From assembly GCA_000004695.1 (NCBI GenBank), contig CM000153.2:1152001-1216000 (forward strand): a stretch of DNA of 64,000 nt. Reading direction: 5' to 3'. Shown here piece after piece: positions 641 to 6,750 of the stretch. Both the position numbers and the translations under genes were made by a program. Origin of the DNA: Dictyostelium discoideum (lineage: Eukaryota). Within the stretch, counting starts at the first letter, position 1. The number at the start of each line of letters is the position of its first letter. The notes under the pieces were generated by a model, which was given only the letters and a program-made list of their open reading frames with translations, made no database searches and was not told the origin of the DNA.

Positions 641-1652
641 TTATTTGTTAATATATATTGTATTTGTTTTTTATTATTATTGTTATAATTATTATTATTA
701 TTATTATTATTATTGTTAAAGAAAAAAATAAAATAAAATTTTTGAAATTTCTGTCTTATTTTTTTTTTAAAATTTTTATTATTTTTTGTTTTTTTTTTTT
801 TTTATTTTTTTTTTTATTTTTTTTTTAATTTAATTTTTATTTTTTAATTTTCAAAATATCTTTGAACGAAAGCGATAATTGGATTAGTTTTCATTTTTGG
901 CTATCTTCTATTTTTTTTTATATTTTTTTTATTTTTTTTATTTTTTTGATTACTCACATTAAGATTATATACAATCAAAAAAAGAAATTTCGTTTGTGTG
1001 TCGATTTTGGATTCTTTTTCAAAAAAAAAAAAAAAAAAAAAACAAGGTTTATTTTATAACTTAATTTTAAAATTTAAATATCTGGGTTAAAAAAAAATAA
1101 AAAATTAAAAAATATAAAACTAGAAAAAAAAACTAAAAAACTAAAAAACTAAATAATAAAAATAGAAAAAGGAAAAAATAAAATAGATCAAAAGAAATTA
1201 TTTTAAAAAAAATAAAAAAAAGGTATAAAAAAAGTGGAAAAATGAAAAAATTATATCAGTAGTTTTATAAGACCTTTGAGGTATAAGTTTTTTTTTTTTT
1301 TTTTTCTGTTTAAAAAAAAAAAATAAAACTAAAAAAAGGAAAATATTGGAATCCTTTGGTATAAGTTCCAAAATAAAAAAAAAAAAAAAAAAAAATTGCT
1401 TTTGGAATATTCCAACCTTTTTTTTTTTTTTCAAATTTTTTTTTTTTTTTTTTTTTTAATTTTAATTTTTCACACTTTATTATTAATTTCTTTTTTTTTA
1501 TTTTTTTTTATTTTTTTTTTATTTTTTTTTATTCATTTATTATTTTTTTTTATTTTTTTTTTTTCCTTATTATTAATAAAAACTAAAATTTTTTTTTTTT
1601 ATTTTTTTATTTTTTATATTTTCATACAAAAATAAATAAACAAATAAACAAA

Positions 1653-1687
<35 letters not shown>

Positions 1688-1702
1688 AAAAATAAAAAAT
1701 AA
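641..1702. promoter_or_regulatory. divergent intergenic/promoter region between hgd (-) and FYVE-esterase gene (+); poly(A)/poly(T)-rich
   Basis: About 1 kb of >90% A+T non-coding DNA with long homopolymer runs lies between two divergently transcribed start codons (640 on -, 1703 on +). No specific motifs were identified. Confidence 0.3.
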
Positions 1703-3501
1703 ATGTCAAATCCATTAAATTCCTCTTTGGCAGAAGAGGAGGAGGGCGAATTTGTGTCACCCTTTGCAAGAAGTGATAATATAAATACCACCACCACCAC
1801 TACAACTACATCAAATACATTATCATACCCAACTGAAGAGAAGCAAGAGGAACAATCATCACCATCATCACAACAACAAGAACAACCAACACAACCACAA
1901 AAACCAAAGAAAAAGAAACCAGCACAACCAAAAACAGATACAGATACATCAACAACTACTGAACCAGTTGCACCACCAGTAGCATCAAAGAAACCGGAAT
2001 GGGTACCTGATAACTCTTCAAATAAATGTGAAATGTGTAGTTCAACCTTTACATTCCTTAATAGAAGTATTTATCTATTTTTACTATAGTACAATTTTTA
2101 AAAAAAATCTAAATTCTAACACTATATAATTTTATTATTATTTTTACAATCAGGACATCATTGTAGAAGATGTGGACATTTATTTTGTGGAGATTGTTGT
2201 TCATTAAATACATCACTACCACAAGAATATGGATATACTGAAAGAGTTAAAGTTTGTTCAAAATGTTTTACAACTACAATTAACGAGAGAGCATTGGAAG
2301 AAACAACCATCACAATGAATATTGGTGGTGTTAGTAAAGAGACTAAAGTTGTTTCAGGTGTTCATAAATTATTATTATGGAGAATGGGTGCACATGACGA
2401 TGGAGAATTTAATAGAGATGTTTTTGATTCATATGAAAATCAACCATCAACCCCAATACCAGTATCAAGAGTGCAAGATCTTTATTTAGATGGAAATGAT
2501 TTAGATGTTCAAGGTTGTACAGGATTTAGAGTTAGAGTTTATAATCCAGCTTTAGAACCAGGTGAAAAACCAACTACCTATCCAATTTTAGTAAGTATTT
2601 AATTTATTTAATTTATAAAAGACAAGTAAAAATTTATAAATATTCTAATTATTAATATTATTATTATTATTAATTGTTATCTAATTAGATGTGGTTCCAT
2701 TCTGGTGGTTTTGTATCAAAATCAATTCAAACTCCATCAGTTGATGGTTTATGTAGATTACTTTCAAATCAATCAGTAAGTTTATCAAAATCATATATTG
2801 TTAATAATTATACATATTAATATGTTTATTTTGTTTTATTTATTTTTTTTTTTAAAAAAAAAAAGAGATGTGTTGTAGTATCAGTTGATTATAGATTAGC
2901 ACCAGAAAATATGTTTCCAGCAGCAGCTTTAGATTGTTTTGCAGCAACTTGTTGGGCAGTAAAGAAAGCAGCAACATTTGATGGTGATCCAACACGTATA
3001 GCAGTAGCAGGTGATAGTGTAGGAGGAAATTTAGCAGCAGCAGTAGCCTTAATGGCAAGAGATAAAGAGACACCAAGATTATGTGGTCAAGTTTTGGTTT
3101 GTCCAATTTTAGATTTAAAGAAAAACGAAGAGAAATATTATACACGTGTTGTACACAACGATGGTTATTTAATGCCGATGAGTTTTTTCAAATGGTTCTC
3201 TAGCAAATATTGCAGAGAGGCAGATATTGAAAATCCTTACGCATCACCTTTAAAGGCTGCCACTTCAACAAAGGCATTATGTGGTTTACCTGTAACTCAT
3301 ATGATCACCGCTGGTTTTGATCCATTTTGTGACGAAGGGGAACTTTATATTAAAAAACTTAGACAATCTGGCGTTAAGGTTTATCATACACGTTATACAA
3401 ACTCACCACATGGATTCTTTGCAATTGGTTTGGATGAATCAAATGAAGCTTTAATGGAAGTTTCAATAATTTTAAAATATATGTTTGGTTCTAAAAAATA
3501 A
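1703..3501 (+). CDS. FYVE zinc-finger + alpha/beta-hydrolase fold-3 (hormone-sensitive-lipase / arylacetamide-deacetylase-like) esterase; CDS join(1703..2066,2154..2590,2689..2775,2866..3501)
   Basis: Exon 1 ends ...WVPDNSSNKCEMCSSTFTFLNR at a GTATTT donor (2067). Exon 2 starts after CAG (2153) and continues RHHCRRCGHLFCGDCC...VCSKCF, the canonical FYVE RRHHCRRCG motif. Exon 3 (after GTAAGT at 2591 and TTAG at 2688) is MWFHSGGFVSKS..., carrying the HGGG oxyanion-hole motif. Exon 4 (after AAAAAG at 2865) is RCVVVSVDYRLAPE...GDSVGGNLAA...DPFCDEG...SPHGFF, giving the nucleophile GDSxG plus Asp and His of the catalytic triad. All junction phases check out. Total is about 507 aa. Confidence 0.8.
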
Positions 3502-3676: not shown

Positions 3677-4358
3677 TTATTTTCTATTAAATAAACTGAA
3701 TTTCTTTTTCTTTGTTGCAGTTACCGGGAATTGAAGAGGAGCCAAAGTAACATCAGAATGAGATACCTCTCTTTTGATTTTAAAAGGTTTGATAGTGACA
3801 ACAAAAGTGGATCCACTAACTAAATCGACTACTGCATCATACCAACCATCACCGCATTTAACTTTACATTCATCACCTACTCTCGGTGGTTGTACATTTA
3901 CAACAACTGATTCAACTTGTGGTACATTTGAATTGTTGAAAGAGAGACTAGAATTGGAACTTTGTTCATCTTCAATAATATCACTATCGTCATCATATTC
4001 ATCACCACTTTCATTATTATTATTATTATTAGTAAAACTACTTATTGGACTATTGTTATTAAAACTATTTGATCCACTATTTAAATTATTATTATTATTA
4101 TTATTGTTGTTGTTGTTGTTATTGCTATTATTATTATTATTATTATTATTATTGTTACTATTTGGATTTCTATCTAAAGATTGATTGAGTAATGAAAAAC
4201 TTGGTGCAATTGGTTGTGATGATTTTCTATTTGGTGTAAATTGATCTGAATTTGATATCTTTCTTGACGGTGATGTTCCAAGTACATTGTTAATATTATT
4301 TGTATTAATATTATTTGTACTATTAATATTATTTGTATTATTATTACTGTTACTATTT

Positions 4359-4444
<86 letters not shown>

Positions 4445-6750
4445 GTTTACATTATTATTATTTAAAGAATTTAAACTCTTATTTGAAGGTTCTTTTTGTA
4501 AAACTGGGATTGAAGTTTTCCCACTTCCTTTTTGTTTTAAACTATTATGACCACCTATTGTTACACTAGGATTTAAATGGTCCCCGTATGATAGTGCACC
4601 ACTAAGTGATACTGGCTGGGTTATTGATAAGTGAGTTTTTTCACTTGAAGTTCTTAAATACATATCTACATTGGTATTGCTACCTAAATTATTATTATTA
4701 TTATTATTATTGTTATTGTTATTATTATTATTAGTGTTATTAATATTATTATTAGTTAAATTATTTTGATTTGTGTACAAATGGAGATTACCACTAGATT
4801 GATAATAAGCTCCAAGGTTTTGATTTGATGCTGGTGTTGTTGTGGTAGTAGTTGTTGTTGTTGTTATATTTATATTGTTGTTATTGTTATTGTTATTGTT
4901 ATTATTATTAGTATTATTATCAGATTCCAATTCAAATTTAGTAGTTAATCTTGAATTCTTTGATAATGAAGATGGTGAAGATGATGCTGTAACTTTTAAA
5001 TTCTTTTCAAAATGTTCATGAAGGAATAAATCATTGGTTGGTGAATGTTGATCATCATCTGATGGTGGATGAAAGAAATCGTTGGTTAGTATTGAAGATC
5101 CTCTTTCTTTGTTATTTGATACACCAGAGGTTGAAGCTGATGCAGAGGAATTACTTAGTGATGGTGAATGAATTTGATGAGTCGATATGATTTTTCCAGG
5201 TGCAGTGAGTGGTGCAGATGAAGAACGTGTGTGATTAGTGTATGGTGAACCACTGCCACCACTTCCCAAAAGATTACCTTGACTAGATTCTTTATTCAAT
5301 AGCTCATTTGAACTATCCAATGAGGATTTTGAATTTAAGGTTGCATTTGCTAGGATTGGTGGTAATGGTGGTGGTGTTAAACCTAATTTAATCATATATT
5401 CATCTCTTTCCGTTACCAATTGAGAAATCATATCCTTCATTACCTTCTTCTCTTTCATTGCACGTAAAAAATGTAATTTCAATCTTTTGATTGTCTCTGT
5501 CATTTCTTTCTTTTGTGACTCCAATTGTTGAATACGATCATGGTCGCTGCCATTATTACTATTGGTTGTATCATCATCTGACTCTACATCATAACCTTCA
5601 GCATAAGTGTTGATTGATAGTTTCGACCCACTTCCACTAGATTTAATTCTTGATGGTTCAGGTGATGATGCTGGTTGTGATTGAGATGGTTCATGAATGT
5701 GCTGTTTTATCCATGGATGCTCTAAAAGTTGTGATGCTGTTGGTCTTTTATTTATATCTCTAACAAAACATGCCAATAAAAAGTGTTTTAAGTCTGCTGA
5801 TATATTATTTGGAATTGGTGGATGTGGATTATTAACCATTGCAAACATTGCTGGCATTGTTCCTAAATCCCAATATGGTGGATTACCCGTTAACATCTCT
5901 AATAATGTACAACCTAATGACCAAATATCACATGCTGTACTTCTTGCATTCATATCCATTTGTATAACTTCTGGTGCCACTATAAAATATATTAAAAAGA
6001 AAAAAATAAAAAAAAAAACATTATTAATATTTGACACAATCTATTTTCACTACAAGTCAATTAATATTATTTTTTTTAAAAAAAATAAACATACTCCAAA
6101 ATGGTGTACCAACAACTGTTAATTTTCTATCGATCGCTGAATAAGTACATGAACCAAAATCTGCTAATTTAATTACACCTTCTTTTGTTATGAGAATATT
6201 ATCGCTTTTTATGTCTCTATGAATTACACCTTTCTCATGAAGATATGCTAAACCTTTTAAAACTTGACTAAAGTATCTCGAGAGTAATGGTTCTTGAAAA
6301 CAACCATATCTCTTGGCAATCTTTGCCAATGATCCACCCTCTATAAATTCCAATGCAAAATAAAGATATCTTGAGGTTTCGTATGATTCTATAAACTTTA
6401 CAATGTTTGGATGTTGAAGTGTTTGCAATAATTTTATCTCTTGAATGATTGATGGTAATTGTTTCTCTGATATTATGGTTTTTTCAATCTGTTTAATTGC
6501 ACAGAAATCACCTGTTTCTGCATTTAATGCTTTAAAAACTTTACCAAATGCACCTTTACCAACAGCTTCTCCAATTTGCTAAAAATAAAAATAAAAAAAA
6601 ATTTAAATTTTAATTTTGATTTTGTTTTTTTTTTTTTTTTTTATTTTTTTAATAAAATAACTTTAGTATATTTCCATTGTATTTAAAACTATAAATATTA
6701 GTAATACATACATATTTACTAAAAGAGTCCGTTTCTTTTATTGTGTCCAT
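3677..6750 (-). CDS. Ser/Thr protein kinase, Cdc7(S. pombe)/Cdc15/septase-like, with long poly-N/S C-terminal extension; CDS join(6750..6712,6578..6095,5979..3677)
   Basis: Exon 1 is [13 protein letters not shown] with a GTATGT donor at 6711. Exon 2 follows a TTTTAG acceptor and reads [31 protein letters not shown]...HPNIVKF...[27 protein letters not shown]...VVGTPFW, ending at a GTATGT donor. Exon 3 follows TTATAG (ending 5980) and reads MAPEVIQ...[22 protein letters not shown]...HPWI, then about 600 aa of N/S/T-rich low complexity ending at 3677. Kinase subdomains I-XI are present. The best resemblance is to S. pombe Cdc7 / S. cerevisiae Cdc15 (GKGAFGxVY, HPNIVKY, [13 protein letters not shown], G(S/T)PYWMAPEVIE). 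This may be the Dictyostelium septase; the symbol is not asserted. About 941 aa. Confidence 0.8.

What the first reader, a model, noticed from the sequence alone, without database searches (positions are those of the whole stretch)
1703..3501. FYVE finger fused to an HSL/AADAC-type esterase
Exons 1-2 encode a complete FYVE domain with WxxD-like, RRHHCRRCG and RVC elements. Exons 3-4 encode an intact alpha/beta-hydrolase fold-3 catalytic domain: HSGGF oxyanion motif, GDSVGG nucleophile, DPFxDEG acid and HGF histidine. A PI3P-targeting module on a lipase/esterase body suggests an endosome- or phagosome-recruited lipolytic enzyme. This combination is uncommon outside amoebozoa.
Basis: partly seen in the sequence, partly recalled or inferred. 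Interest (0 to 1): 0.5.

Follow-up and report, generated by a model that had tools for sequence, protein, structure and literature searches.

The report
Annotated Dictyostelium FYVE–esterase fusion gene
This is a real four-exon Dictyostelium discoideum gene, already annotated as DDB_G0283819, that joins a membrane-lipid (PI3P)-binding FYVE zinc finger directly to an intact bacterial-type esterase; its function has never been tested.

Summary
Exons 1703-2066, 2154-2590, 2689-2775 and 2866-3501 (+) splice into a 507-aa protein. It has a FYVE finger (aa 99-162, E=3e-21) and an Abhydrolase_3 / HSL-family esterase (E=7e-66) with oxyanion motif, Ser347, Asp448 and His478 intact.

The fusion does not depend on splicing: exon 2 alone encodes the second half of the FYVE finger and the start of the esterase fold. 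mRNA-type contigs from relatives carry both domains in one ORF.

It is not new. The protein is identical to DDB_G0283819 / Q54QI3, and a 2010 FYVE survey listed one protist FYVE+Abhydrolase_3 protein. No paper on the gene was found in the searched library.

Corrections:
- The third FYVE motif is R-V-K-V-C, so Lys154 sits where the canonical RVC has Arg.
- The esterase fold starts in exon 2, directly after the FYVE helix.
- It resembles prokaryotic family IV esterases more than human HSL, and lacks AADAC's membrane anchor.

New here: relatives have lost catalytic residues. D. purpureum has His→Asn, and a FYVE-fused sister clade has Ser→Gly.

The most likely role is a cytosolic esterase recruited to PI3P-positive endosomes and phagosomes. 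That is inferred, not shown.

The parts
1703..2066 (+). Exon 1. Encodes aa 1-121 plus the first base of codon 122: a disordered, low-complexity N-terminus (aa 1-~95) and the first half of the FYVE finger (WVPD at nt 2000-2011; Cys109, Cys112).
   Evidence: Gene model and translation. pLDDT is below 50 for aa 1-18 and 22-88. Motif coordinates.
2067..2153 (+). Intron 1 (87 nt, GT..AG, 14% GC). It interrupts the RRHHCRRCG motif after the first base of codon 122 (the second Arg).
   Evidence: The P. violaceum genomic gap sits at the same place relative to the intronless contig L004.
2154..2590 (+). Exon 2. Encodes aa 122-267: the second half of the FYVE finger (RHHCRRCG, R-V-K-V-C at nt 2243-2257), the conserved junction, and the esterase N-terminal cap helices and first beta-strands.
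   Evidence: Uninterrupted frame 2156-2590. PDB esterases align from aa 212-236. Helix 157-169 runs into cap helices 183-199 and 210-216 with pLDDT 78-89.
2591..2688 (+). Intron 2 (98 nt, GTAAGT..AG, 9% GC).
2689..2775 (+). Exon 3. Encodes aa 268-296 and carries the oxyanion-hole motif H271-S-G-G-F (nt 2698-2712).
2776..2865 (+). Intron 3 (90 nt, GTAAGT..AG, 10% GC).
   Evidence: The P. violaceum gap is at the equivalent position.
2866..3501 (+). Exon 4. Encodes aa 297-507 plus the TAA stop. It carries the nucleophile elbow G-D-S347-V-G-G (nt 3010-3027), the acid D448 in DPFCDEG (nt 3319-3339) and the catalytic H478 in HGFF (nt 3409-3420).
1997..2275 (+). FYVE zinc-finger domain (aa 99-162; genomic span includes intron 1).
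   Evidence: Pfam PF01363 E=2.9e-21. Aligns with the solved FYVE domains of ZFYVE16, Lst2, RUFY1, Hrs, Vps27 and EEA1.
2297..3498 (+). Complete family IV / HSL-type alpha/beta-hydrolase domain, including the N-terminal cap (approximately aa 170-507; genomic span includes introns 2 and 3).
   Evidence: Pfam PF07859 E=6.9e-66. Foldseek TM-scores of 0.85-0.92, normalised to the target, against whole family IV esterases.

Best explanation
Window 1703-3501 is the single protein-coding gene DDB_G0283819 of Dictyostelium discoideum. It encodes a soluble cytosolic protein with three parts: a disordered N-terminal tail; a FYVE zinc finger; and, rigidly attached to the FYVE C-terminal helix with no flexible linker, a complete family IV (HSL-family) carboxylesterase with an intact oxyanion hole and Ser347-Asp448-His478 triad. 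The gene structure, domains and conservation are shown here. The function is inferred. The FYVE finger most likely docks the enzyme on PI3P-rich cytosolic faces of early macropinosomes, phagosomes and endosomes. That would place the esterase cap and active-site entrance next to the membrane, where it would hydrolyse an ester-linked lipid or small ester. The substrate is unknown.
For: - The gene model gives 507 aa with canonical introns and is identical to XP_638888.1 / Q54QI3.
- Both domains score far above the Pfam cut-offs.
- The eight Zn-binding Cys, WxxD and RRHHCR are present.
- Catalytic motifs align residue-for-residue with solved esterases such as Est8, with HGGG/GDSAGG/DPLxDEG/HGF equivalents.
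- The AF2 model has pLDDT 80.7 and pTM 0.79, with no confidence dip across the junction. It superposes on whole family IV esterases.
- Exon 2 alone spans both domains.
- The same fusion occurs in every sequenced dictyostelid group, at 64-80% identity over the best local alignment; from about aa 96 on conservation is high, while the tail is barely conserved.
- Transcript-type evidence comes from relatives. Four Polysphondylium-like contigs from four samples share a 5' end and lack the three introns present in the P. violaceum genome. A polyadenylated contig (L008) and Trinity transcripts encode the fusion in one ORF.
- There is no signal peptide or transmembrane segment, consistent with a cytosolic, peripheral membrane protein.
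- In Dictyostelium, PI3P marks newly closed macropinosomes and phagosomes, and a FYVE domain is needed for endosomal targeting of AdcA (PMC3001460).
Against: - No transcript, localisation, lipid-binding or enzymatic data for this gene were available, and no paper names it.
- The third PI3P-contact motif has Lys154 instead of Arg in all dictyostelid orthologues. Only 6 of 197 FYVE domains sampled have Lys there.
- In AdcA the FYVE domain alone, or even as a dimer, was not sufficient for endosome recruitment (PMC3001460).
- The D. purpureum orthologue has Asn in place of the catalytic His. The closest FYVE-fused clade outside Dictyostelia has lost the nucleophile Ser. Catalysis is therefore not what is universally conserved in this family.
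- The interdomain geometry could not be inspected, because no coordinates or PAE were available.
Confidence: 0.6

Rival explanations
1. The conserved function is non-catalytic. The esterase fold would act as a ligand-binding or scaffolding module held on PI3P membranes, a pseudoenzyme or sensor comparable to the HSL-family gibberellin receptor GID1. Hydrolysis in D. discoideum would then be dispensable or vestigial.
For: D. purpureum has CAT->AAT (His478->Asn) in an otherwise intact, 79%-identical orthologue. The sister clade (P0277, P0011, P0021, P0022; 45-50% identical) has GDGAGG in place of GDSxGG and HTG(N/H/F)F in place of HxGGF. Two of its members also have His->Asn. These proteins still keep the FYVE finger and the strongly conserved junction motifs (GGxSxETK, WxMGA..G.FDR). 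GID1 structures appear among the sequence-level PDB hits.
Against: Nine of ten dictyostelid sequences, including all D. discoideum-complex strains, keep every catalytic residue and both oxyanion glycines. A third FYVE-fused clade (P0278, P0281) is also intact. Retention over that depth of divergence argues for selection on catalysis in this lineage.
Confidence: 0.17
2. The protein is an active esterase, but the FYVE finger does not target PI3P. The Lys154 variant would bind another lipid or a protein, or serve only as a structural zinc module on the cap. The enzyme would then act in the cytosol or at another organelle such as lipid droplets.
For: Lys replaces the canonical RVC Arg in all dictyostelid orthologues, a 3% minority state. 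The FYVE domain was insufficient for membrane targeting in Dictyostelium AdcA (PMC3001460). The FYVE finger is rigidly packed against the esterase in the model, rather than tethered.
Against: WxxD, RRHHCR, all the Zn ligands and a hydrophobic turret (F-T-F-L) before RRHHCR are intact and invariant. Lys conserves the charge. The related fused clades have the canonical RVC, which suggests an ancestral PI3P-binding role.
Confidence: 0.2
3. The fusion is an annotation artefact, and the FYVE exons and esterase exons belong to two separate genes.
For: One D. cf. discoideum assembly annotates two adjacent proteins of 273 and 221 aa (P0128, P0123) instead of one. No D. discoideum transcript data could be consulted.
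Against: That split falls inside the esterase domain: it reads into intron 2 and skips exon 3. P0128 still contains the FYVE finger plus the esterase N-terminus. Exon 2 is one open frame across the junction. Every other assembly and species annotates one protein. mRNA-type contigs encode both domains in one ORF.
Confidence: 0.02

Closest known systems
Prokaryotic family IV (HSL-family) carboxylesterases, e.g. Est8 (4YPV), EST2 (1EVQ), AFEST (1JJI), Sto-Est (3AIK)
   Same: The whole alpha/beta fold with its N-terminal cap is shared (Foldseek TM 0.85-0.92). Sequence identity is 42-51% to bacterial homologues. The oxyanion H-x-G-G, GDSxGG, DPxxDEG and HGF motifs all align.
   Different: Those enzymes are stand-alone proteins of about 310 aa. 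This one carries a FYVE finger and a 95-aa disordered tail, has spliceosomal introns, and has Ser or Thr at the first Gly of HGGG and Val after the nucleophile.
Mammalian hormone-sensitive lipase (LIPE, 8ZVQ) and AADAC/NCEH1
   Same: They share the Pfam family (Abhydrolase_3), the triad type and the HGGG oxyanion class.
   Different: The similarity is much weaker (88 bits to HSL, against 181 bits to Est8). No HSL N-terminal domain or regulatory insert was detected. There is no N-terminal signal-anchor such as AADAC/NCEH1 have (my own knowledge): the maximum 19-residue hydropathy is 1.49, at the nucleophile elbow. Membrane targeting here would be through a lipid-binding finger on the cytosolic face.
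FYVE-domain proteins with catalytic or adaptor partners (PIKfyve/Fab1, MTMR3/4; Dictyostelium AdcA)
   Same: The logic is the same: a PI3P-binding finger places an effector domain on endosomal membranes. AdcA shows FYVE-dependent early-endosome targeting in the same organism (PMC3001460).
   Different: The partner here is an esterase. In the 2010 survey this pairing occurred once among all FYVE proteins (PMC2837644, suppl. file 2). The RVC Arg is replaced by Lys.
GID1 gibberellin receptors (plant HSL-family pseudoenzymes)
   Same: An HSL-family fold whose catalytic His was lost and which works by ligand binding (established knowledge). This parallels the D. purpureum His->Asn change and the Ser->Gly sister clade. 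GID1 is among the PDB hits.
   Different: The D. discoideum protein keeps the full triad. No evidence of ligand-receptor function was obtained here.

Membership tests
FYVE zinc finger (PF01363) | Profile match above the curated threshold | tested here: met
   75.8 bits against a cut-off of 27.8, E=2.9e-21, aa 99-162, profile positions 1-64 of 67.
FYVE zinc finger (PF01363) | Eight zinc-coordinating cysteines in four CxxC pairs | tested here: met
   Cys109, 112, 125, 128, 133, 136, 156 and 159, plus an extra Cys137. They align with the Cys of solved FYVE domains.
FYVE zinc finger (PF01363) | WxxD motif | tested here: met
   W100-V-P-D103, conserved in the dictyostelid orthologues.
FYVE zinc finger (PF01363) | R(R/K)HHCR motif | tested here: met
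   R121-R-H-H-C-R126, split by intron 1 and invariant across complete orthologues.
FYVE zinc finger (PF01363) | RVC motif (Arg contacting the PI3P head group) | tested here: not met
   The sequence is R152-V-K154-V-C156, and HMMER aligns Lys154 to the canonical Arg. All Dictyostelia have Lys. Among 197 FYVE domains in the top representative hits, 183 have Arg and 6 have Lys. The change conserves charge.
FYVE zinc finger (PF01363) | Specific PI3P binding and endosomal localisation | not testable with these tools
   Needs a liposome or lipid-overlay assay and live imaging.
HSL family / bacterial lipolytic family IV (Abhydrolase_3, PF07859) | Profile match above the curated threshold | tested here: met
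   222.4 bits against a cut-off of 25, E=6.9e-66, profile positions 1-209 of 210.
HSL family / bacterial lipolytic family IV (Abhydrolase_3, PF07859) | HGGG-type oxyanion-hole motif | tested here: met
   H271-S-G273-G274-F. The two Gly aligned with the GG of HGGG are kept. The first Gly is Ser here and Thr in the other dictyostelids.
HSL family / bacterial lipolytic family IV (Abhydrolase_3, PF07859) | GxSxG nucleophile elbow (GDSAG type) | tested here: met
   G345-D-S347-V-G349-G aligns with GDSAGG of Est8 and the other esterases.
HSL family / bacterial lipolytic family IV (Abhydrolase_3, PF07859) | Catalytic Asp (DPLxD) and His (HGF) | tested here: met
   D448 in DPFCDEG and H478 in HGFF align with DPLKDEG and HGFF of Est8.
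HSL family / bacterial lipolytic family IV (Abhydrolase_3, PF07859) | Alpha/beta-hydrolase fold with N-terminal cap | tested here: met
   In the AF2 model the esterase region has block-mean pLDDT 76-98, mostly above 85. Foldseek gives TM 0.85-0.92 over whole family IV chains.
HSL family / bacterial lipolytic family IV (Abhydrolase_3, PF07859) | Carboxylester hydrolase activity | not testable with these tools
   Needs recombinant enzyme and a pNP-ester or lipid substrate panel.
AADAC/NCEH1-type microsomal esterases | N-terminal signal-anchor placing the catalytic domain in the ER lumen (feature known from the literature) | tested here: not met
   The N-terminus is hydrophilic and disordered (mean hydropathy -0.70 over the first 30 aa). 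The most hydrophobic 19-mer (1.49) is the nucleophile-elbow helix.
Mammalian hormone-sensitive lipase (LIPE) | HSL N-terminal domain and regulatory insert | tested here: not met
   Pfam reports no such domain. Human HSL matches only in two partial stretches at 88 bits.

The most novel reading that the evidence does not exclude
FYVE-esterases would form a small eukaryotic family in which the PI3P finger is rigidly fused to the esterase cap. PI3P-membrane docking would then gate or orient the active site, a form of interfacial activation by a signalling lipid. The family has repeatedly crossed from enzyme to pseudoenzyme: D. purpureum has His->Asn, and a sister clade has Ser->Gly with His->Asn in two members. 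This implies a conserved non-catalytic role, such as lipid sensing or scaffolding on early phagosomes or macropinosomes, alongside or instead of hydrolysis.
Probability: 0.15. Interest if true: 0.6.

Novelty: already known. Interest (0 to 1): 0.27.

Why it matters
As a sequence feature it adds nothing to public annotation. The gene, its exon structure and its two domains are already on record. Its value is as a candidate. To my knowledge, and in the literature searches made here, no FYVE-anchored lipase or esterase has been characterised in any organism. Dictyostelium is a leading model for macropinosome and phagosome maturation and for intracellular pathogens. A PI3P-recruited esterase acting on the cytosolic face of these compartments would be a new link between phosphoinositide identity and ester-lipid turnover. 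The natural catalytic-residue losses in relatives offer ready-made comparisons between active and inactive forms.

Tried and rejected
- A second word-indexed homology search with only the FYVE-to-cap segment (172 aa) collected just 14 candidates and was uninformative. The exhaustive representative search and a profile search replaced it.
- The Logan member P0129 was checked as possible transcript evidence. It reads from exon 2 into intron 2 ('PILVSI*'), so it is genomic.
- The AFDB50 fold library, which would have given named organisms for the architecture, was unavailable.
- Full-text searches for DDB_G0283819, Q54QI3 and FYVE + Dictyostelium + esterase found no paper on the gene.
- The taxonomy of the non-dictyostelid fused homologues (P0277, P0011, P0021, P0022, P0278, P0281, P0207) could not be established. 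Their sources give no organism names.
- The two-gene reading suggested by the split annotation in one assembly was considered and rejected.
- A specific AADAC or HSL orthology was considered and rejected.
- dN/dS analysis was not attempted. Synonymous sites between dictyostelid species are expected to be saturated, and the strain-level differences are too few.

Full report
**What is in the sequence**

The window is very AT-rich: 9-15% GC between genes, and 32-38% GC in the exons of this gene. Long poly-Asn and poly-Thr tracts are also present. This composition is typical of Dictyostelium.

On the + strand, four open segments join through three short GT..AG introns. The exons are 1703-2066, 2154-2590, 2689-2775 and 2866-3501. 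The introns are 87, 98 and 90 nt long and 9-14% GC. Together they give a 1524-nt CDS and a 507-aa protein.

**Domain content**

- Pfam finds a FYVE zinc finger at aa 99-162 (75.8 bits, cut-off 27.8, E=2.9e-21).
- Pfam finds Abhydrolase_3 at aa 267-481 (222 bits, E=6.9e-66).
- The best matches among solved structures are prokaryotic and metagenomic family IV (HSL-family) esterases: Est8 4YPV at 181 bits, then the Sulfolobales esterases, EST2 and AFEST.
- Human HSL scores only 88 bits, in two stretches.
- In these alignments HSGGF (271-275), GDSVGG (345-350, Ser347), DPFCDEG (448-454, Asp448) and HGFF (478-481, His478) fall on the HGGG, GDSAGG, DPLxDEG and HGF motifs of the enzymes.
- The FYVE part aligns with the solved FYVE domains of ZFYVE16, Lst2, RUFY1, Hrs, Vps27 and EEA1. 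It has all eight Zn-binding cysteines, WxxD (W100-D103) and RRHHCR (121-126).

**Two corrections to the observation**

First, there is no literal RVC motif. The sequence is R152-V-K154-V-C156, and Lys154 occupies the position of the canonical Arg. This Lys is conserved in every dictyostelid orthologue. It is a minority state: of 197 FYVE domains in the top representative hits, 183 have Arg and 6 have Lys.

Second, the esterase fold does not begin in exon 3.
- PDB esterases align from about aa 212-236.
- An AlphaFold2 model (pLDDT 80.7, pTM 0.79; aa 1-88 disordered) superposes on entire family IV esterases, with TM 0.85-0.92 normalised to the target.
- The FYVE C-terminal helix (157-169) runs straight into the esterase N-terminal cap helices (183-199, 210-216). 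Block-mean pLDDT stays at 78-89 across the junction.
- There is therefore no flexible linker.

**One gene or two?**

That can be set aside.

- Exon 2 is a single open frame. It reads from HHCRRCG through RVKVCSKCF to GFRVRVYNPALEPGEKPTTYPIL, which is the second half of the FYVE finger followed by the first strands of the esterase.
- The spliced protein is identical over its full length to the annotated D. discoideum AX4 protein DDB_G0283819 (XP_638888.1, UniProt Q54QI3, 'FYVE-type domain-containing protein').
- The same architecture is annotated in D. purpureum, D. firmibasis, D. citrinum, Tieghemostelium, Polysphondylium violaceum, Heterostelium, Acytostelium and Cavenderia. Over the best local alignment identity is 64-80%, mostly from about aa 96 onward, whereas the N-terminal tail is barely conserved.
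- Four JGI contigs from four samples encode a Polysphondylium-like orthologue (P0005) as one uninterrupted 539-codon ORF. They all begin within 9 nt of each other, about 100 nt upstream of the ATG. The P. violaceum genome (80-90% nucleotide identity) shows three gaps relative to them, two at the positions of D. discoideum introns 1 and 3. These contigs behave as spliced mRNAs.
- A more distant fused homologue (P0281) lies on a contig ending in a poly(A) tail. Another (P0277/P0012) is a Trinity transcript.
- One D. cf. discoideum assembly annotates two proteins (273 + 221 aa). That split reads into intron 2 and skips exon 3, so it cuts inside the esterase domain. It is a prediction artefact.
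- Direct D. discoideum transcript data were not available to me.

**Already known?**

Yes, as annotation.
- The gene model matches the public record exactly.
- A 2010 comparative survey of FYVE and PX proteins lists Abhydrolase_3 as a FYVE partner found in exactly one protein, in a protist (PMC2837644, table and supplementary file 2).
- D. discoideum was in that survey, so this is almost certainly the same protein. That identification is my inference.
- No paper in the searchable library mentions DDB_G0283819 or Q54QI3. The function appears uncharacterised.

**Family survey**

An exhaustive HMMER search of 1.84 billion representatives and a profile search found the fusion in only a few groups outside Dictyostelia, none with organism names.

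| Clade | Members | Relation to the D. discoideum protein | Active site |
|---|---|---|---|
| A | Dictyostelia | 64-80% identical over the best local alignment | intact, except D. purpureum His478→Asn |
| B | P0277, P0011, P0021, P0022, P0145 | 45-50% identical, same tight FYVE-cap junction | nucleophile Ser→Gly (GDGAGG); second oxyanion Gly lost (HTGNF, HTGHF or HTGFF); His→Asn in P0277 and P0022 |
| C | P0278, P0281, P0248, P0207 | about 35% identical, long linker | intact where the sequence covers it |

- Where the FYVE finger is covered, clades B and C have the canonical RVC (P0277, P0011, P0021, P0278, P0281). P0207 is the exception: it has a degenerate FYVE motif.
- P0145 is a FYVE-plus-linker fragment without the catalytic region.
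- P0207 is truncated after the oxyanion motif, and P0248 ends before the acid and His.
- Within Dictyostelia all catalytic residues are conserved, with one exception. D. purpureum has Asn for the catalytic His, and I confirmed this in its genomic DNA as CAT→AAT.
- The junction motifs (GGxSxETK, WxMGA..G.FDR) are invariant even in the dead clade.
- So the FYVE-cap unit is conserved more universally than catalysis, although catalysis appears to be maintained in D. discoideum and most dictyostelids.

**Origin of the esterase**

Apart from the fused homologues, the nearest relatives of the esterase domain are bacterial 'acetyl esterase' / family IV proteins, at 42-51% identity. Human HSL is much further away. 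There is no AADAC-like signal-anchor and no HSL N-terminal domain. 'HSL-family' is therefore right at the Pfam level, but 'AADAC-type' is not specifically supported. A bacterial origin followed by fusion is plausible, but I did not test it phylogenetically.

**Mechanism**

*Shown:*
- one gene;
- a cytosolic-type protein with no signal peptide or transmembrane segment;
- a FYVE finger with two of the three head-group motifs canonical and the third conservatively changed;
- a complete esterase active site;
- a rigid junction in the model.

*Inferred:*
- The FYVE finger docks on PI3P, which in Dictyostelium marks macropinosomes and phagosomes just after closure (PMC3001460).
- This would bring the esterase cap and active site to the cytosolic leaflet, where it would cleave an unknown ester substrate.

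*Caveats:*
- the Lys154 variant;
- the finding that AdcA's FYVE domain was necessary but not sufficient for targeting;
- the catalytic losses in relatives.

I put about 0.6 on the PI3P-recruited active esterase. The rivals are a non-PI3P role for the finger (about 0.2), a mainly non-catalytic, GID1-like role (about 0.17), and a two-gene artefact (about 0.02).

**Verdict**

It is an already annotated, uncharacterised gene, and its domain pairing was catalogued in 2010. It is a reasonable wet-lab candidate, but not a surprise. Interest 0.27; novelty: already known.

Noticed in passing
L007 3168-3203 (D. purpureum genomic), equivalent to window 3394-3429: The D. purpureum orthologue has AAT (Asn) where D. 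discoideum has CAT (catalytic His478). The flanking residues also change, Pro->Thr and Gly->Ala. The rest of the protein is intact and 79% identical.
   Followed up: partly
P0277, P0011 (L005), P0021, P0022 (environmental or transcriptome homologues): A FYVE-fused sister clade, 45-50% identical, has GDGAGG in place of the GDSxGG nucleophile elbow and has lost an oxyanion Gly. Two members also have His->Asn. These look like FYVE-anchored pseudo-esterases of unknown taxonomy.
   Followed up: partly
window 1730-1775 and 1820-1835 (aa ~10-25 and ~40-44): The otherwise unconserved, disordered N-terminal tail carries two short motifs conserved across Dictyostelia. One is an acidic run followed by [FY]-x-[SN]-P-F (NPF in Polysphondylium). 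The other is L-S-Y-P-T. They may be short linear motifs that bind endocytic adaptors.
   Followed up: no
P0128 and P0123 (D. cf. discoideum assembly, locus tags ACTFIZ_008683 and ACTFIZ_008682): In this assembly the gene is annotated as two proteins of 273 and 221 aa. The first reads into intron 2, and the second starts with a spurious 11-aa leader before exon 4, so exon 3 is skipped. It is probably a gene-prediction artefact, or an intron-2 indel in that strain.
   Followed up: partly
window 3677-6428, minus strand: The convergent neighbouring gene encodes a Ser/Thr protein kinase. The catalytic domain is split by an intron near 6040-6057. A long C-terminal region follows, with several poly-Asn tracts of more than 20 residues. 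Only about 175 nt separate the two stop codons.
   Followed up: partly
window 1628-1702: An (AAATAAAT/AAACAAAT)n microsatellite-like run lies directly upstream of the ATG. It sits within a stretch of about 600 nt at roughly 9-14% GC, with long poly-T and poly-A tracts. This is presumably the promoter and 5'UTR.
   Followed up: no
P0013-P0020, P0238, P0246 (bacterial and metagenomic hits): Many of the best non-eukaryotic hits are proteins of about 650 aa made of two tandem Abhydrolase_3 domains. In P0238 the first copy has a degenerate nucleophile elbow (GGDRASD).
   Followed up: no
L001 1722-3064: One of the mRNA-type contigs continues after the 3'UTR into a cyclin-domain ORF. The four contigs diverge from each other about 25 nt after the stop codon. 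This is probably chimeric assembly across AT-rich low-complexity sequence.
   Followed up: partly
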